A stretch of 64,000 nt of DNA, from positions 17,219 to 81,218 of the forward strand of contig JBBIRF010000007.1 of the NCBI GenBank assembly GCA_037441905.1, in the 5' to 3' direction. Positions 21,619 to 62,295 of the stretch are shown here, one piece after another (position 1 is the first letter of the stretch; the number at the start of each line of letters is the position of its first letter). Made by a program: the position numbers and the translations under genes. The stretch comes from Candidatus Aminicenantes bacterium (GTDB lineage: Bacteria > Acidobacteriota > Aminicenantia > Aminicenantales > CALLJL01). The notes below the pieces were generated by a model. It searched no databases and had not been told where the DNA came from. It was given only the letters and a program-made list of their open reading frames with translations.

Positions 21619-22221
21619 TCAGCGCATTCTCCTTTCCATTTTGCGGAGGATTTCCTGGGGAGCATGGTACCCCTTTTTTCTCAAAAGATGAACCTTGCAG
21701 GCAATTTCAATCAGAGTGGCGATGTTTCGCCCCGGAGCGACCGGAATTATGAGTTGCGGCACCCTCACCCCCAGAATGTCATAATCGGCCGGGAATTCAA
21801 GGCCCAGACGGTCAAATTCGTCGCCCCGGTGCCACCTCTTAAGTTGAATGATAAGGTCTATCGGAATGGAAGCACAGACTGCTTTCGCCCCGAAGATTTC
21901 CTTGATGTTAATCAAGCCTAACCCCCGCAATTCCATAAAATTCCGGGTGAGACGAGGGGCCTGGCCTTTTAGCCTACCAGTCGTCGTCTTCTTAACTTCG
22001 ACCACGTCGTCGGAGATAAAGCGGTGGCCCCGGGTAATCAACTCCAAGGCGCTTTCACTTTTGCCCACCCCGCTATCGCCCATAATCAGGACGCCGAGCC
22101 CGTAAATTTCGAGCAACCCGGCAGAAATTACGGCCATCGGTTCAACCGAGTTTCTTTTAGACGATTTCTGACCCATCGACCGCTCGGGAAGAGAGGGCAG
22201 GCAACGCCCCCGTTTATTCAT
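21619..22221 (-). CDS. hprK: HPr kinase/phosphorylase, short form (C-terminal kinase domain only)
   Basis: P-loop GDSGVGKSESALELI followed by HRFISDDVVEV and the capping motif LRGLGLINI. Only 200 aa, so no N-terminal domain. Confidence 0.75.
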   Translation of the reverse strand: MNKRGRCLPSLPERSMGQKSSKRNSVEPMAVISAGLLEIYGLGVLIMGDSGVGKSESALELITRGHRFISDDVVEVKKTTTGRLKGQAPRLTRNFMELRGLGLINIKEIFGAKAVCASIPIDLIIQLKRWHRGDEFDRLGLEFPADYDILGVRVPQLIIPVAPGRNIATLIEIACKVHLLRKKGYHAPQEILRKMERRMR

Positions 22222-56779: not shown

Positions 56780-57448
56780 TTGATGTTTTTTTTGCTGGGA
56801 TTACTCATCGGTTTCCTGGCTTCAGTCCCGCCAGGACCTATCAATATTTACTCCATTTCTCAGGCTCTCAGGTTCGGGTTCTGGAAAAGCGTCTCGATTC
56901 GGCTGACGGTGGCTGTTCTTGACTCCCTTTATTGTTTCCTGAGCGTCGTCTTTACCTCCCTTTTAGTTTCCCTCCTCGACCGCTGGGCCTTTACCCTGCG
57001 CTTAGCCGGAAGCGCGGCTATCACTATTGCCGGGCTTCACCTGCTCCACCTCGCCCGCTCCCACCGGGCATTAGGCCTCGGCTTGCCAAACAAAAATGAA
57101 GTGGCCGCTCCCCAGCGACTAAGCCACCCTATTCTCTTCACTTTTTTGATGTATGTTTCCAGCCCGACGCTCCCTGTTTTCTGGCTTACCGTGGCTGCCC
57201 TCGTCACTTCCCACGGGTTGGTCACTCACCATGGTTTAAAGCCTGTCCTTTTCGGGTTCGCCTGCGGCAGCGGCAGTCTGGGGTATTACATGGTTATTGC
57301 CAGAATCGGGGCCCAACTCCAGAAAAAGATGAAGCCAAAGTTTTTCGAAATAGCTTATATGGTCATGGCTTCAGTTCTTTTTCTCCTGGCCGCTTTTTCG
57401 CTGGCCGGCTTCTTTCTCTTTCGGAACCATTTTAGAAACTCCTTTTAA
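56780..57448 (+). CDS. LysE/RhtB-family small exporter
   Basis: Six predicted TM helices. N-terminal PGPxN-like motif (PPGPINI) typical of LysE-type translocators. Confidence 0.55.
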   Translation: MMFFLLGLLIGFLASVPPGPINIYSISQALRFGFWKSVSIRLTVAVLDSLYCFLSVVFTSLLVSLLDRWAFTLRLAGSAAITIAGLHLLHLARSHRALGLGLPNKNEVAAPQRLSHPILFTFLMYVSSPTLPVFWLTVAALVTSHGLVTHHGLKPVLFGFACGSGSLGYYMVIARIGAQLQKKMKPKFFEIAYMVMASVLFLLAAFSLAGFFLFRNHFRNSF

Positions 57449-57895: not shown

Positions 57896-59314
57896 ATGAT
57901 GGCTACATTATCCTGGGTTATACCCGCAGCTATAATCATCGTCATTTTGGCCCTTGTTATCTTAATTTTAGCCAAACAATACCGTAAGGTCGGGCCGAAT
58001 GAAATCTTAATCGTGGCTGGCGGCCGGAAAAAAACGATTGTCCTCCCCGATGGCCGCCGGGTAAAAATCGGCTATCGCTACCGCCTCGGCGGCGGTACCT
58101 TTGTCATTCCCTTCATCGAAAGCGTCTATAGACTTCCGGTTGATGTCATAACCCTGAACATAAAAACTCCTGAAGTTCTGACTTATAATGGCGTGCCCAT
58201 AATGGCCGAGGCGACGGCTCAGGTAAAAATCGACTCCACCGACGAGGCGATTCGCCTGGCCGCCGAACAATTCCTGGGTCAAGGAAAAGAAGGCATCCGG
58301 GATGTGGCCATGACCATCCTCGAGGGCAAGATGAGGGAAGTCATCGGCGGGATGACGGTGGAGGAAATCTTCCGCGGCCGGCACGAGTTTGCTTCCAGAG
58401 TTCGCGAAGCCACCAGGGAGGATTTCGCCCGGATGGGCCTGGTCATGCTTTCGTTTGCTCTTAAGGATATCAGCGATACCCAGGGCTACCTCGAGGCTCT
58501 GAGCCGGCCGCAGATTGCCGCGGCGCGCCGGGATGCCGCCATCGCCCAGGCCGAGACCGAGAAAGAGGCGATCATCAAATCGTCTGAAGCCCGGAAAGAA
58601 GGAGAGATTGCTCGCCTGGCAGCCGAGGCTTTGATCGCCAAGGCCCAGTGGGAAAATGAAGCCAAGAAGGCTGAAAGCCAGGTCTTCGTCAACCAGAAAA
58701 AGGCCCAGGCTGATTTTGCCTACGAGCTAGAACGCCATAAGCTCACCCAGGACATCAAGAGGGAAGAAGCTAAGGTCAAACAGATTGAAAAGCAGGAAGC
58801 CATCAAAATCGAAGAGCTGGAAATAACCAGGCGTCAGAAAGAACTCGAAGCCAGCGTCATCAAGCCGGCTGAAGCCCGCAAATTCCAGGTCATGGCGGAA
58901 GCCGAGGCCGAGGAATTCCGGATTCAGGCTGAAGCCAAAGGAAAAGCTGAAGCCCTCCGGCTCGAAGGCCAGGTGGAGGCCGAGACCATCCGGCAAAAGG
59001 GTCTGGCCGAGGCCGAAGCGATGCTCCAGCGGGCCAAAGCCTGGGAAAAACTCAACCAGGCCGCCCTCCTCGAGATGTACTTCAAGATGCTGCCTGAACT
59101 CGCCAGAGCTGTGGCCGAACCCCTGAGCAAAGTCGATAAGATTATCCTGGTTGGCGGAGACAAGGGGCCGGGCGCTGGTCGGATTACAGCTCAGGTGGCC
59201 GAGATGTTAGCCCAGATGCCCGAAGTGGTTAAATCACTCACCGGCGTTGATTTCCAGAAATGGCTCAAAGAAAAACTCTCCCCCGAAGAAAAAACCGAAA
59301 AGACCGAAAGCTGA
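57896..59314 (+). CDS. flotillin-like SPFH/Band-7 domain protein
   Basis: N-terminal TM anchor. SPFH domain. Long C-terminal coiled coil with EA-rich repeats (flotillin domain). Confidence 0.8.
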   Translation: MMATLSWVIPAAIIIVILALVILILAKQYRKVGPNEILIVAGGRKKTIVLPDGRRVKIGYRYRLGGGTFVIPFIESVYRLPVDVITLNIKTPEVLTYNGVPIMAEATAQVKIDSTDEAIRLAAEQFLGQGKEGIRDVAMTILEGKMREVIGGMTVEEIFRGRHEFASRVREATREDFARMGLVMLSFALKDISDTQGYLEALSRPQIAAARRDAAIAQAETEKEAIIKSSEARKEGEIARLAAEALIAKAQWENEAKKAESQVFVNQKKAQADFAYELERHKLTQDIKREEAKVKQIEKQEAIKIEELEITRRQKELEASVIKPAEARKFQVMAEAEAEEFRIQAEAKGKAEALRLEGQVEAETIRQKGLAEAEAMLQRAKAWEKLNQAALLEMYFKMLPELARAVAEPLSKVDKIILVGGDKGPGAGRITAQVAEMLAQMPEVVKSLTGVDFQKWLKEKLSPEEKTEKTES

Positions 59315-59337
59315 CTTAAGCGAAGGGCAAAGCAACC

Positions 59338-61677
59338 ATGATTTCCGAAAAAGCAAGCCAGATTGGCACCTCTCCCACCCTTAAGATTTCAGCTAAAGCC
59401 AAAGCGATGAGGGCGGCAGGGGTCGATGTCATCGACCTTAGCGTGGGGGAGCCGGATTTCCCGACTCCGGAAAACGTCAAAGCTGCCGGCATCAAGGCTA
59501 TCCAGGATAACTTTACGAAATACACTGAAAACGAGGGTATTCCCCAGCTTAAGAAGGCCATCATCAAGCGAATGGAAGAGGATTATAAGGTTCATTATGA
59601 ACCGAACGAAGTAATTGTTTCTACCGGCGCCAAAGCTTCGGTTTTTCATCTGATCATGGCGCTTATAAACGAGGGAGATGAAGTTATTATCCCGGCTCCC
59701 TACTGGGTTACTTACCCTCAGGCTGTCCTTCTGGCCAAGGGAAAGCCGATAATCGTCCCGACGAAGGAAGAAAACGGGTTTGTTTTAACGCCCGAAGAAC
59801 TCAAGGCGGTCATAACTCCCTCGACCAAAGCGCTAATCCTAAATAACCCCTGTAACCCGACCGGAGCCGCGTATAACCGAAAGCAGCTTGAAGCCCTGGC
59901 CGAGGTCGTCCGGAACGAAGACTTGTTTGTCATCGCCGACGAAATTTACAGCAAGCTGGTTTATGAAGATTTTGAGTTTGTCAGCTTTGCTTCGCTGGGT
60001 GAGGATATCAAGAAAAAAACAATTATTATCAGCGGCGTTTCCAAGACCTACTCGATGACTGGCTGGCGCATCGGCTATACGCTTGGCCCGGCGGAAATAA
60101 TCAGCGCCATGGCTAAAATCCAGAGCCATACTACCTCCAACCCCGCTTCTATCTCCCAGATGGCCAGTCTGGAGGCCCTGCGGGGCCCGCAGTATGAAGT
60201 TCAAAGGATGGTGGCCGAGTTCCAGCGTCGCCGGAACTATTGTCTGATGCGGCTGCGGACAATCCCCCACATTTCCTGCTTCAAGCCGCAAGGAGCTTTC
60301 TACCTTTTCCCCAATTTTTCTTATTATTACGACAAAGAAGCCGACGGGATGCAAATCCGCAATTCTTATGGCTTGGCTTATTATCTGCTGCGAGAAGCCA
60401 GGGTGGCGATTGTCCCCGGAGACTCGTTCGGAGCAGATAACTACATCCGGATTTCTTACTCGACATCGATGGAAAACTTAGAAAAAGGCTTTGACCGCAT
60501 CGTGGCTGCCATGGCTAAGCTGAAGCCGTCACGGCGGGCGAAGCGGGTAGTGCTGAATAACGTCCAGACGAGAGTAAAGAAGGCCGGCCCGGTTGACTCA
60601 GCAATCGACCTCAGGCTGAGAGAAGCTCTGGCGAACGAGATGGAAAGCCATCTTAGCCAGGAACGGGTTTACGAATGGAATGCCAACATTAACGGCGTCA
60701 TCATCCAGCTCCGGACTAACGTCGCGCATCTGAACGAATTCTGGATAGAAAACTGGTTTCCGGCGCAGCTTGAAGCTGAGATTGAACCTCATGCGGTAAT
60801 TTATGCGGTCGACGGCATTGCTGGCCGCGAACCCCGGGCTTTTTATAGCCCCGAAACCAGGACGGCTTTTCTGGTAAACACTGACTTCTATGCGCCGCTG
60901 CGAAGCCTTGCCTTGGGCATGGTGCTCGATATAACTGAAAGGCAGCTTGCCGGGAATGCTCTCCGCGGGATGTCGCTGGATATCAGAGGAAATAGCCTGG
61001 TCTTAGTCGGCCCGCCCGGGACAAGAAAGACCGAGCTTTTCTTCGAGCTCATGAGCGACCCTCGTTTCCGGCTCCAGGCGAACGATGTAGTTTTTGTCCG
61101 GCCGGCGGCGGGTCGGGTGGTTGCCGAATGCGTCGAAAGAAAACTTTACCTCGCGACGCCCACGGTTGAACTCTACCCGGCGCTCGCGCCGCTCTTCGAT
61201 GCGAGCAAGTGCGAAAACGTCGTCGTAAGAAAAGAAGATTGTCAGGATGCGGAATGTCAGCAGCGGGAGGATTGCCGGCTCGACCGGGGAGCGCCTTTCT
61301 GTTACCGGGCTTCAGCTAACGGCCATGCGATGCTTGACCCGAACTGGCTCTACGGCAAAGGTGGATACCCGCGGCGGTCGAACCTCCGCTGGGTTTTTCT
61401 TCTCCGGTCAGATAAGGTTTCTCCCGCGGTTATTCAGTTGAGCCCTGAGGAAGCCCTCCGCGTCTTAGAGACCGGCGAGACACCAGGCGCTCAGAAGACA
61501 ATATCCTCTGGCAAACACCAACCTTTCTTCAACCCCCATCTGCTCAGCGTCAGCCCGGAACGGCTCGAGTTGCAGAAAATTTTCTTCCGGCGCCTCCTGG
61601 ACTCGGTGACGGTTTATCTTTTTAACAGCGGTGTAGCGGGCGCCGAGAAAATAAAGCAACTCGTTGCCGGCGACTGA
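59338..61677 (+). CDS. fusion protein: class I (aspartate/aromatic) PLP aminotransferase + HprK/P-like kinase domain with degenerate P-loop
   Basis: Residues 1 to about 395 carry AspAT motifs (NNPCNPTG, SKTYSMTGWRIGY with the PLP-Lys). Residues about 555-779 carry LVLVGPPGTRKTELFFELM..RFRLQANDVVFV, mirroring the HprK motifs GDSGVGKSESALELI..HRFISDDVVEV. Confidence 0.6.
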   Translation: MISEKASQIGTSPTLKISAKAKAMRAAGVDVIDLSVGEPDFPTPENVKAAGIKAIQDNFTKYTENEGIPQLKKAIIKRMEEDYKVHYEPNEVIVSTGAKASVFHLIMALINEGDEVIIPAPYWVTYPQAVLLAKGKPIIVPTKEENGFVLTPEELKAVITPSTKALILNNPCNPTGAAYNRKQLEALAEVVRNEDLFVIADEIYSKLVYEDFEFVSFASLGEDIKKKTIIISGVSKTYSMTGWRIGYTLGPAEIISAMAKIQSHTTSNPASISQMASLEALRGPQYEVQRMVAEFQRRRNYCLMRLRTIPHISCFKPQGAFYLFPNFSYYYDKEADGMQIRNSYGLAYYLLREARVAIVPGDSFGADNYIRISYSTSMENLEKGFDRIVAAMAKLKPSRRAKRVVLNNVQTRVKKAGPVDSAIDLRLREALANEMESHLSQERVYEWNANINGVIIQLRTNVAHLNEFWIENWFPAQLEAEIEPHAVIYAVDGIAGREPRAFYSPETRTAFLVNTDFYAPLRSLALGMVLDITERQLAGNALRGMSLDIRGNSLVLVGPPGTRKTELFFELMSDPRFRLQANDVVFVRPAAGRVVAECVERKLYLATPTVELYPALAPLFDASKCENVVVRKEDCQDAECQQREDCRLDRGAPFCYRASANGHAMLDPNWLYGKGGYPRRSNLRWVFLLRSDKVSPAVIQLSPEEALRVLETGETPGAQKTISSGKHQPFFNPHLLSVSPERLELQKIFFRRLLDSVTVYLFNSGVAGAEKIKQLVAGD

Positions 61678-61698: not shown

Positions 61699-62295
61699 CT
61701 ATTTTTCGCCTTCTCCAAACAGGCGTTTTTCGACTGTTTCGGCCAGCAAGTGAAGCAGGAAAAGATGAACCTCCTGGATACGGGGAGTGGAGCGGCTGGG
61801 CACAGCAATCAACTGGTCAGCCAAGGGGGCAAGAATATCGCCAAACTCGCCGGTAATAGCCACGGTTATCAGGCCCTTCTGTCTGGCGACTTTGAGAGCC
61901 TGGAGTACATTAGCTGAACGACCACTTGTCGAAAGTCCGATGGCGATATCGCCGGCCTCACCCAGCGCCTCGACCTGGCGGCTGAAGACCTCGTCGAAGG
62001 AAACATCATTCGCCACCGAGGTAAGAATGGACGTGTCGGTAGAAAGGGCGATAGCTTTTAAGGCGGGTCTGTTTTTCAAGAATTTATTGACCAGTTCAGC
62101 GGCAAAGTGCTGAGCCTCGGCGGCGCTCCCGCCATTACCAAAAATCAGAATTTTTTTTCCTTTTTTCAGGGCGTCAGTCAGGGTGTCGGCCAGCCTGAGA
62201 ATTTCGCTTTCCATTTCCCTGATGAATCTCTCCAGAAGTCCCTTTAATTCTTCTGTCGCCTCAAGAAATGCTTTTATTTCAGAGGGCTCATTCAT
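61699..62295 (-). CDS. gmhA: SIS-domain phosphoheptose isomerase
   Basis: SIS motif ILIFGNGGSAAEAQHFAAEL and the conserved GmhA core. Confidence 0.75.
   Translation of the reverse strand: MNEPSEIKAFLEATEELKGLLERFIREMESEILRLADTLTDALKKGKKILIFGNGGSAAEAQHFAAELVNKFLKNRPALKAIALSTDTSILTSVANDVSFDEVFSRQVEALGEAGDIAIGLSTSGRSANVLQALKVARQKGLITVAITGEFGDILAPLADQLIAVPSRSTPRIQEVHLFLLHLLAETVEKRLFGEGEK

What the first reader, a model, noticed from the sequence alone, without database searches (positions are those of the whole stretch)
59338..61677. Aspartate-aminotransferase fused to an HprK/P-like kinase domain with degenerate P-loop and a 5-Cys cluster, co-oriented behind flotillin
The N-terminal 395 aa or so are an unmistakable class I PLP aminotransferase, with NPCNPTG and SKTYSMTGWRIGY. 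The C-terminal 385 aa or so end in a domain whose key motifs parallel the HPr kinase in this same window. The first pair is LVLVGPPGTRKTELFFELM against GDSGVGKSESALELI. The second is RFRLQANDVVFV against HRFISDDVVEV. The P-loop glycine before the Lys is replaced by Arg, giving GPPGTRKT, so the domain may be a pseudokinase or have altered nucleotide handling. Next comes a cysteine-rich stretch, KCENVVVRKEDCQDAECQQREDCRLDRGAPFC, that could bind a metal. The gene starts 24 nt after the flotillin stop on the same strand, suggesting co-transcription and perhaps membrane-microdomain localisation. I do not know a characterised aminotransferase-HprK-like fusion. Such a fusion implies PLP chemistry coupled to phosphorylation of a substrate or protein.
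Basis: partly seen in the sequence, partly recalled or inferred. Interest (0 to 1): 0.75.

Follow-up and report, generated by a model that had tools for sequence, protein, structure and literature searches.

The report
Aspartate aminotransferase fused to remodelled mini-PEPCK
This gene is a real, widely conserved fusion of an aspartate aminotransferase (which makes oxaloacetate) to a shortened, active-site-remodelled and undescribed relative of PEP carboxykinase (which uses oxaloacetate), always placed behind a flotillin gene and often in front of a normal PEP carboxykinase gene.

The parts
57896..59314 (+). Flotillin gene (SPFH/Band_7 + Flot domains, 472 aa), immediately upstream, 23-nt spacer
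   Evidence: PF01145 E 6.3e-32 and PF15975 E 6.2e-8. Flotillin is upstream on the same strand in 72/72 loci with upstream DNA and in distant loci L086 and L087.
59338..61677 (+). Whole fusion ORF, 779 aa (stop codon included)
   Evidence: One open frame in 80/80 orthologous loci.
59338..60525 (+). Subgroup-Ibeta aspartate aminotransferase domain (res 1-396)
   Evidence: PF00155 E 2.7e-79 over profile 2-361/361. NF004769 aspartate transaminase 442 bits, below its 617 cutoff. Solved AspATs and aspartate/prephenate ATs E 1e-104 to 1e-85, full length. N173, D201, Y204, K236, R244 and R371 are invariant in 75/75.
60043..60045 (+). K236, PLP Schiff-base lysine in SKTYSMTGWR
   Evidence: Motif position and 75/75 conservation. 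Its role is from established knowledge of class I aminotransferases.
60526..60597 (+). Junction segment (res 397-420) with conserved LxNxxTRVKK. It aligns with the first N-domain strand of PEPCK (PckA 47-69), so it belongs to the mini-PEPCK and is not a neutral linker.
   Evidence: hhalign. L406, N408 and T411 are near-invariant. pLDDT dips at 402-404 in the full-length model.
60598..61674 (+). Mini-PEPCK core (res 421-779): trimmed PEPCK N-domain (WNAN, QLRTN, DFWxENW, PH motifs) plus P-loop domain. It ends at about PckA residue 462.
60964..60966 (+). R543, at the position of the PEPCK Mn-ligand His232
   Evidence: Column mapping validated with true PEPCKs. Arg in 75/75 Aminicenantes orthologues, 37/38 AAT-fused and 67/68 PEPCK-fused members. 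His in standalone members.
61009..61032 (+). Atypical Walker A / kinase-1a GPPGTRKT (res 558-565): G253 replaced by R563, with K564 and T565 retained
   Evidence: This position is K52/R14/N7/Q2 and never Gly in 75 orthologues. K564 is 75/75.
61081..61086 (+). Kinase-2 remnant N582-D583 (PEPCK D268-D269)
   Evidence: Position 582 is N65/S7/T2/A1 and never Asp. Position 583 is D65/E10.
61210..61302 (+). Cys-rich insertion (C625; C635-x4-C640-x5-C646-x8-C655), a candidate Cys4 metal site
   Evidence: The four insert Cys are invariant in 75/75. The insert is absent from P0094, P0095 and all 68 archaeal PEPCK-fused copies, and degenerate in P0078 and P0079.
61699..62295 (-). Convergent SIS-domain gene (context only). 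In 37/80 relatives a PEPCK gene sits between the fusion and this gene.
   Evidence: PF13580 E 2.4e-31. Synteny.

Best explanation
SHOWN. The ORF encodes one polypeptide. An intact subgroup-Ibeta aspartate aminotransferase (Asp + 2-oxoglutarate <-> oxaloacetate + Glu) is joined to a 383-aa paralogue of ATP-dependent PEP carboxykinase. This paralogue keeps the two-domain PEPCK fold. It lacks the C-terminal part (beyond about PckA 462) that carries the adenine-contacting region. Most catalytic residues are replaced in a fixed, conserved way. The fusion belongs to a conserved gene cluster, flotillin - AspAT::mini-PEPCK - (PEPCK). INFERRED (most likely mechanism). The mini-PEPCK is not itself a carboxykinase. 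Arg, Ser and Asn replace residues at and next to the Mn/Mg site (H232R, K213S, D268N). Extra Arg/Lys appear in and around the P-loop (G253R/K, K212R), while the Walker Lys/Thr, D269 and E282 remain. This predicts a strongly cationic pocket, independent of the PEPCK-type Mn2+, that binds an anionic ligand such as oxaloacetate, PEP, phosphate/PPi or a nucleotide phosphate tail. Through this pocket, and/or by docking onto the organism's genuine PEPCK, the domain would couple the oxaloacetate-producing aminotransferase to PEPCK, so that aspartate carbon is passed to PEP with the labile oxaloacetate regulated or channelled. Docking is suggested by the archaeal proteins, where the same domain is covalently fused in front of PEPCK. 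The invariant Cys4 insert is most simply a structural metal (Zn-type) site. The universally adjacent flotillin suggests the assembly is organised at a membrane microdomain, for an unknown reason.
Against: No ligand, interaction or activity has been measured. The window itself has no PEPCK within 64 kb, and 43/80 loci lack an adjacent one. Very strong conservation of K564/T565/D583/E600 and 63 invariant residues would also fit a still-catalytic enzyme with changed chemistry. The full-length AF2 model gives pTM 0.51, so no defined AAT/mini interface is predicted and nothing structural yet supports channelling. Flotillin, not PEPCK, is the most constant neighbour, so PEPCK coupling may not be the core function. 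Alignment around R65, R333 and the adenine site is of low confidence.
Confidence: 0.45

Rival explanations
1. Bifunctional enzyme. The mini-PEPCK is catalytically active with altered chemistry, such as a PEPCK-like kinase independent of the PEPCK-type Mn2+ or dependent on the Cys4 metal, or an oxaloacetate decarboxylase. The single polypeptide would then convert aspartate via oxaloacetate to PEP or pyruvate.
For: The domain is under strong purifying selection, with 63 invariant residues including Walker K564, T562, D/E583, E600, R601 and K602. The whole PEPCK fold, including the N-domain substrate region, is retained. The window and 43/80 loci have no adjacent PEPCK that it could serve. Standalone relatives keep canonical catalytic residues, and one carries an intein in its P-loop, so the family as a whole is probably enzymatic.
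Against: Two of the three Mn ligands are lost (K213S, H232R). D268N and K288P/A are also changed, the R65 equivalent is Ser/Ala, and the region after PckA 462 with the adenine contacts is missing. An intact PEPCK is encoded right next to it in 37/80 genomes and is fused to the homologous domain in archaea. That would make a second PEPCK redundant. Half of the archaeal fused copies lack the Walker Lys altogether.
Confidence: 0.25
2. Flotillin-centred module. The mini-PEPCK is mainly a nucleotide/phosphate-sensing or scaffold-binding domain. It recruits or regulates the aminotransferase at flotillin membrane microdomains (for example next to amino-acid transporters), independently of PEPCK.
For: Flotillin is immediately upstream in 72/72 informative Aminicenantes loci, with spacers mostly 4-60 nt, and also in the distant fused loci L086 (taxon not determined) and L087 (Zixibacteria). 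PEPCK adjacency is only 37/80. A standalone relative sits next to an NfeD/S49 protease, the usual SPFH partner. The Walker Lys/Thr are retained.
Against: Archaeal mini-PEPCK::PEPCK fusions have no SPFH neighbour. The other standalone contexts examined show no SPFH gene. Nothing in the sequence indicates a membrane or flotillin-binding element. This reading does not explain why both fusion partners are oxaloacetate enzymes.
Confidence: 0.2
3. One reading: an HprK/P-like protein or small-molecule (pseudo)kinase domain that couples PLP chemistry to phosphorylation.
For: Sub-threshold HprK matches are confined to the P-loop region: TIGR00679 E 0.0075, PF07475 E 8e-5 to 0.02 in relatives, PDB HprK E 6e-5, and the window's own HprK E 2.4e-6.
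Confidence: 0.07
4. Artefact: two separate genes joined by a frameshift or assembly error.
For: Some database entries list the two halves as separate genes, for example L002.
Against: 80/80 independent genomes have one frame. The L002 split is an indel inside the aminotransferase, with the junction open. The junction segment is conserved and homologous to the first PEPCK strand.
Confidence: 0.01

Closest known systems
ATP-dependent phosphoenolpyruvate carboxykinase (PckA; PF01293; e.g. PDB 1ii2, 1aq2, 1xkv)
   Different: About 150 aa shorter: the N-domain is trimmed and the chain ends at about PckA 462, so the adenine-contact region is missing. No Pfam or NCBIfam PEPCK hit. K212R, K213S, H232R, S250P, G253R, D268N and K288A, with the R65 equivalent Ala/Ser. 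A Cys4 insertion is added. Fused to an aminotransferase.
HPr kinase/phosphorylase (HprK/P; PF07475, TIGR00679)
   Different: Only about 134 aa align and all family models score far below threshold. The protein has a PEPCK-type N-domain that HprK lacks. The HprK signature GxSGxGKS is absent and there is no PTS context.
Archaeal ~890-aa 'PEPCK' proteins (Asgard, Bathyarchaeia, Altiarchaeota), i.e. mini-PEPCK domain + full PEPCK
   Same: Their N-terminal ~340 aa belong to the same family as the window's C-terminal half (33-37% identity; WNANI, QLRTN, DFWxENW, PH motifs). They share the K212R and H232R replacements and are fused to an oxaloacetate enzyme.
   Different: The partner is PEPCK, not AspAT, and the domain is N-terminal. 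There is no Cys4 insert. G253 is usually kept, but the Walker Lys is lost in about half. No flotillin neighbour.
Subgroup-Ibeta aspartate / aspartate-prephenate aminotransferases (e.g. PDB 6f35, 1j32, 5wmh, 1bjw)
   Same: The N-terminal half aligns end to end (E 1e-104 to 1e-85). All PLP and substrate-anchoring residues are present, as is the subgroup-Ib lysine (K99 in the GAK motif) (residue roles from established knowledge).
   Different: The known enzymes are about 385-410 aa and stand alone. None carries a C-terminal PEPCK-like domain. Substrate specificity here is not measured, and the NCBIfam equivalog score is below its cutoff.
PEPCK-fold proteins without a PEPCK role, e.g. Euglena complex I subunit NDUEG2 (PDB 8j9h_E2)
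   Different: 10% identity, a eukaryotic respiratory-complex context, and no evidence of common descent beyond the superfamily.

Membership tests
Class I PLP aminotransferase, subgroup Ibeta (aspartate aminotransferase) | Full-length match to the class I/II aminotransferase domain | tested here: met
   PF00155 E 2.7e-79, profile 2-361/361. Solved AspATs E 1e-104, residues 5-395.
Class I PLP aminotransferase, subgroup Ibeta (aspartate aminotransferase) | Catalytic set: Schiff-base Lys, PLP-binding Asn/Asp/Tyr/Arg, alpha-carboxylate Arg | tested here: met
   N173, D201, Y204, K236, R244 and R371 are present and invariant in 75/75 orthologues. Roles assigned from established AspAT knowledge.
Class I PLP aminotransferase, subgroup Ibeta (aspartate aminotransferase) | NCBIfam equivalog threshold for aspartate transaminase | tested here: not met
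   NF004769 scores 442 bits against a cutoff of 617. It is the best hit, but specificity is not certified.
Class I PLP aminotransferase, subgroup Ibeta (aspartate aminotransferase) | Asp/2-oxoglutarate transamination activity | not testable with these tools
   Needs an enzyme assay.
ATP-dependent PEP carboxykinase (PF01293, EC 4.1.1.49) | Two-domain PEPCK fold | tested here: met
ATP-dependent PEP carboxykinase (PF01293, EC 4.1.1.49) | Reaches the Pfam/NCBIfam family threshold | tested here: not met
   No PF01293 or PEPCK NCBIfam hit for residues 396-779, even at E <= 1.
ATP-dependent PEP carboxykinase (PF01293, EC 4.1.1.49) | PEPCK-specific motif YxGExKKG (Y207, K212, K213) | tested here: not met
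   F517, R522, S523 in the window. R74/75 and S71/75 in orthologues.
ATP-dependent PEP carboxykinase (PF01293, EC 4.1.1.49) | Mn2+ ligand His232 | tested here: not met
   R543, Arg in 75/75.
ATP-dependent PEP carboxykinase (PF01293, EC 4.1.1.49) | Kinase-1a GxxGxGK[ST] | tested here: not met
   GPPGTRKT. The Gly before the Lys is replaced (never Gly in 75 orthologues), while Lys and Thr are kept.
ATP-dependent PEP carboxykinase (PF01293, EC 4.1.1.49) | Kinase-2 Asp-Asp (D268, D269) | tested here: not met
   N582-D583. The first position is never Asp in 75 orthologues.
ATP-dependent PEP carboxykinase (PF01293, EC 4.1.1.49) | C-terminal adenine-binding region | tested here: not met
   The alignment ends at PckA 462, and the R449/T455 equivalents are Val/Ile (low-confidence region).
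HPr kinase/phosphorylase (PF07475 / TIGR00679) | Family model threshold | tested here: not met
   TIGR00679 scores 15.5 bits against 240. No PF07475 hit for the window protein.
HPr kinase/phosphorylase (PF07475 / TIGR00679) | Walker A GxSGxGKS and the HprK C-domain as best structural match | tested here: not met
HPr kinase/phosphorylase (PF07475 / TIGR00679) | HPr(Ser) phosphorylation | not testable with these tools
   Needs biochemistry.
New 'mini-PEPCK' family (undescribed; defined here) | About 350-aa domain with WNAN, QLRTN, DFWxENW, PH, ERK, SKxEN, LDPxW and NP[HY] motifs | tested here: met
   The window protein has all of them. 109 word-index hits, 358 species genomes, and alignments.

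The most novel reading that the evidence does not exclude
The mini-PEPCK is a previously unrecognised kind of PEPCK-derived module. It may be a pseudoenzyme adaptor that physically assembles aspartate aminotransferase and PEPCK into an Asp-to-PEP metabolon on flotillin membrane microdomains, which would be the first central-metabolic client of a bacterial flotillin. Alternatively it may be an enzyme in which Arg residues and a Cys4 metal site replace the classical Mn/Mg centre to carry out new oxaloacetate/PEP chemistry. The same module, fused to PEPCK, would then also be an unstudied regulatory element of gluconeogenesis in Asgard and other archaea.
Probability: 0.2. Interest if true: 0.85.

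Novelty: new variant of a known kind. Interest (0 to 1): 0.62.

Why it matters
Aminicenantes are abundant, uncultured subsurface and sediment bacteria whose central carbon metabolism is inferred only from annotation. Here a conserved gene, present in at least 358 species-level genomes, is annotated only as 'aminotransferase', and half of it belongs to a domain family with no Pfam or NCBIfam model and no literature. The fusion partners (AspAT in bacteria, PEPCK in archaea including Asgard lineages) and the frequent PEPCK neighbour form a Rosetta-stone-type link. They tie this domain to the oxaloacetate node, the branch point between amino-acid catabolism, the TCA cycle and gluconeogenesis. If the domain regulates or scaffolds PEPCK, it adds a new control element to a textbook enzyme. 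If it is catalytic, it is a PEPCK-fold enzyme whose canonical Mn-site ligands are largely replaced. The invariant linkage to flotillin offers a rare, testable lead to what bacterial flotillins organise.

Tried and rejected
- Pfam, NCBIfam and PADLOC scans of residues 396-779 gave no family. The only hit was a marginal HprK match.
- A single-sequence phmmer search against PDB gave only chance hits.
- A profile search of PDB with A2 was contaminated by about 140 aminotransferase positions. It returned AspATs plus HprK at E 6e-5 and no PEPCK. The same contamination affects the lower part of the representative search, so I did not use its counts below about E 1e-36.
- hhalign of the family against the single E. 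coli PckA sequence failed in global mode and was weak in local mode (23%). It worked only with a PEPCK profile and a broader family profile.
- My first by-eye guess that SKCENVV matches PckA SKTENTR (R333) was rejected. hhalign places it on LLENV (E311-V313).
- My first residue table was offset by hmmalign trimming and was discarded, then redone.
- The AFDB Foldseek library was unavailable.
- The search for related loci with the very diverse alignment A3 found no usable pattern. The narrower A4 worked.
- The exact window protein is not in the contig index.
- Literature searches for the fusion, for 'ScmC' and for PEPCK pseudoenzymes found nothing relevant. A search for E. coli PEPCK residue names found no open paper.
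- The idea that archaeal fusions also neighbour SPFH genes was tested and rejected.
- Gene contexts of standalone members were heterogeneous and gave no function.
- The full-length AF2 model gave no confident inter-domain geometry (pTM 0.51).
- The promoter/terminator scan was at chance level.
Full report
**Observation.** The window contains a 779-codon ORF at 59338..61677 on the + strand. The HprK used for comparison is real: it is a C-domain-only HprK at 21619..22221 on the minus strand, PF07475 E 1.4e-57. The flotillin gene (57896..59314; Band_7 + Flot) ends 23 nt before the ATG, and an in-frame TAA at 59317-59319 fixes the start. No terminator-like site lies between the two genes. The promoter and terminator scans are otherwise at chance level.

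**Is the fusion real?** Yes. A word-index search with the C-terminal half found 109 relatives, many also carrying PF00155. A scan of one genome per species found 358 genomes with a relative. The best 80 are almost all Aminicenantes, with the closest at 78% identity. In 80 of 80 loci the aminotransferase and the C-terminal domain lie in one stop-free frame of 780-815 aa. In L002 the gene caller produced two genes, but the cause is a one-base frameshift inside the aminotransferase (…EKEYNGV|RIRNSYG…). The junction itself is open. The two halves are similarly constrained: mean pairwise identity is 75% for the aminotransferase and 67% for the C-terminal half, with 95 and 63 invariant positions among 75 full-length orthologues.

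**N-terminal half.**
- Residues 1-396 match PF00155 end to end (E 2.7e-79).
- The best NCBIfam model is aspartate transaminase NF004769, at 442 bits against an equivalog cutoff of 617.
- The closest solved structures are subgroup-Ibeta aspartate and aspartate/prephenate aminotransferases (6f35, 1j32, 5wmh, 1bjw), at E 1e-104 to 1e-87 over the full length.
- N173, D201, Y204, K236 (Schiff base), R244 and R371 are invariant in 75/75. The subgroup-Ib lysine is present (K99). Residue roles come from established knowledge.
- This half therefore looks catalytically intact. Aspartate/glutamate specificity is likely but not proven.

**C-terminal half: what it is.**
- No Pfam model matches. NCBIfam gives only TIGR00679 (HprK) at E 0.0075 over the P-loop.
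- An AlphaFold2 model built on 47 sequences is confident (pLDDT 88.4, pTM 0.87).
- In Foldseek the first 35 hits are all ATP-PEPCKs (E about 1e-18, TM about 0.70).
- A profile-profile comparison of 45 family members with 41 ATP-PEPCKs gives 99.1% probability and E 1e-18 over 352 columns, covering PckA 47-462.
- The domain is therefore a shortened paralogue of the entire two-domain PEPCK. HprK is a more distant cousin sharing only the P-loop domain. The apparent linker (res 397-420, LxNxxTRVKK) aligns with the first N-domain strand of PEPCK.

**Active-site anatomy.** I mapped E. coli PckA positions onto the family and checked the mapping with true PEPCKs run through the same HMM. They give the expected Y207, K212, K213, H232, G248, G253, K254, T255, D268, D269, E282, Y286, K288 and T289. 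PDB entries for point mutants at R65, Y207, K212, K213, S250, K254 and D269 show that these positions are recognised as functional. PMC12547629 summarises the roles of the PEPCK-specific, kinase-1a and kinase-2 motifs.

| PckA position | Window residue | State in 75 Aminicenantes orthologues |
|---|---|---|
| R65 | A416 | Ser/Ala (low-confidence alignment) |
| Y207 | F517 | mostly Asn |
| K212 | R522 | Arg 74/75 |
| K213 | S523 | Ser 71/75 |
| H232 | R543 | Arg 75/75 |
| S250 | P560 | Pro or Lys |
| G253 | R563 | never Gly (K52, R14, N7, Q2) |
| K254 | K564 | Lys 75/75 |
| T255 | T565 | Thr 72, Ser 3 |
| D268 | N582 | never Asp |
| D269 | D583 | Asp/Glu |
| E282 | E600 | Glu 74/75 |
| K288 | A606 | Pro/Ala |

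The chain stops at about PckA 462, before the remainder of the nucleotide-binding domain. The site is therefore remodelled and fixed, not decaying.

**The Cys cluster.** The Cys-rich stretch is an insertion near the PckA 316-337 hairpin. Its four cysteines (C635-x4-C640-x5-C646-x8-C655) are invariant in 75/75, and C625 in 72/75. The insert is absent from P0094, P0095 and all archaeal copies, and degenerate in P0078 and P0079.

**The wider family.** Three architectures exist.
- **Standalone proteins of 350-570 aa.** They keep the canonical K212, H232, GTGK[ST], DD and an Arg at K288. One has an intein inserted right after GTGKS. These are probably true enzymes of unknown substrate.
- **The AspAT fusion.** It occurs in Aminicenantes and other Acidobacteriota, Zixibacteria and Latescibacterota.
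- **Archaeal proteins of about 890 aa.** The same domain precedes a complete PF01293 PEPCK (for example P0126, PF01293 E 1.9e-48). They are widespread in Asgard lineages, Bathyarchaeia and Altiarchaeota.

Both fused classes share K212R and H232R. About half of the archaeal copies have lost the Walker lysine, and P0126 reads GSSENDIATH.

**Gene neighbourhood.**
- Flotillin is immediately upstream on the same strand in all 72 loci that extend far enough, with spacers mostly 4-60 nt.
- It is also upstream in two distant fused loci. L086 shares 43% identity. L087 is from Zixibacteria.
- In 37 of 80 loci the next gene downstream, on the same strand, is a full-length archaeal-type ATP-PEPCK with intact YxGExKKG, GL[TS]ATGKST and QDD motifs. 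In L086 the order is PEPCK, flotillin, fusion.
- The window belongs to the subclade without the adjacent PEPCK. There the convergent SIS gene follows directly, and no PEPCK lies within the 64 kb.
- The P-loop variant tracks this split: GPKGTKKT with an adjacent PEPCK (31/35) and GPPGT[K/R/N]KT without.
- Archaeal fusions have no SPFH neighbour.
- Standalone contexts are heterogeneous. NDK is a neighbour twice and an NfeD/S49 protease once.

**Mechanism.** What is shown:
- an intact oxaloacetate-forming aminotransferase is covalently joined to a PEPCK-derived domain;
- homologues of that domain are either fused to PEPCK or encoded next to it.

What is inferred:
- K213S and H232R remove two of the three Mn ligands, and D268N changes the neighbouring kinase-2 Asp.
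- K288 is also lost, and the adenine region is missing.
- The domain is therefore unlikely to be a carboxykinase.
- With Arg at 522, 543 and 563, and K564, T565, D583, E600, R601 and K602 retained, it should offer a cationic pocket independent of the PEPCK-type Mn2+. Candidate ligands are oxaloacetate, PEP, phosphate/PPi or a nucleotide phosphate tail.
- It may also dock onto PEPCK, as the archaeal fusions suggest. Either way it would couple AspAT to PEPCK for an Asp-to-OAA-to-PEP route.
- The Cys4 site is most simply structural.
- The role of flotillin is unexplained. Its perfect linkage makes membrane-microdomain organisation a serious possibility.

The main rival is that the domain is still catalytic with altered chemistry. 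That would fit its strong conservation and the absence of an adjacent PEPCK in this window. The full-length AF2 model (pLDDT 83, pTM 0.51, dip at 402-404) predicts no fixed AAT/mini interface, so nothing structural yet supports channelling.

**Comparison and novelty.** The protein is a member of the class I aminotransferases. It is a new family within the PEPCK/HprK P-loop superfamily. It fails the defining sequence features of PEPCK proper and of HprK. I found no Pfam, NCBIfam or PADLOC model and no paper describing the domain, the AspAT fusion or the archaeal N-terminal extension. I rate it a new variant of a known kind.

Noticed in passing
L010, L022, L027, L028, L030, L038-L045, L047, L049, L051, L054, L055, L058-L062, L066-L070, L073-L075, L077-L080, L082, L084 (e.g. 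L042:9169-10995): An archaeal-type ATP-PEPCK gene with intact catalytic motifs lies directly downstream of the fusion in 37/80 Aminicenantes genomes. It is absent from this window. The mini-domain P-loop variant (GPKGTKKT vs GPPGTxKT) tracks its presence.
   Followed up: yes
P0126, P0254-P0362 (archaeal proteins of about 890 aa; loci L091, L092): Many Asgard, Bathyarchaeia and Altiarchaeota 'PEPCK' proteins carry an N-terminal copy of about 340 aa of the same mini-PEPCK domain, often with the Walker lysine lost. Source annotations call them simply PEPCK.
   Followed up: partly
P0195 (754 aa standalone relative): An intein (PF14890, res 216-393) is inserted immediately after GTGKS of the canonical P-loop. 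This suggests the standalone canonical members are bona fide nucleotide-using enzymes.
   Followed up: no
L085:9587-10015 and L089:4325-4825: A nucleoside-diphosphate kinase gene is adjacent to two otherwise unrelated family members (P0078 and P0116).
   Followed up: no
L003:2288-3124: The standalone relative P0094 is followed by an NfeD/S49 protease gene, the usual operon partner of SPFH (stomatin/flotillin-type) proteins. The contig ends before any SPFH gene could be seen.
   Followed up: partly
L085:8001-9577 (P0078, complete genome CP070796.1): A variant whose aminotransferase part is truncated to the C-terminal small domain (window residues 258-396 only). Its mini-domain has a degenerate P-loop (GPKGMKRGS) and no Cys4, and there is no flotillin neighbour.
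   Followed up: partly
window 21619..22221 (-): An HprK consisting only of the C-terminal kinase domain (200 aa, PF07475 E 1.4e-57), without the usual N-terminal domain.
   Followed up: partly
window 56780..57448 (+): A LysE-type amino-acid exporter gene lies between the GT2 gene and flotillin. Among the 80 related loci only the closest relative (L005) shares it.
   Followed up: partly
L002:7700-7800: A one-base frameshift inside the aminotransferase of an 804-kb ENA contig splits the orthologue into two called genes. It is probably an assembly indel. This explains several database entries that look like standalone C-terminal domains.
   Followed up: yes
L090:6919-8115 (P0127): A standalone relative has a precomputed weak hit to PF27840 'ScmC', a Pfam model absent from the local Pfam copy, and sits next to a radical-SAM-like gene. 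I could not determine what ScmC is.
   Followed up: partly
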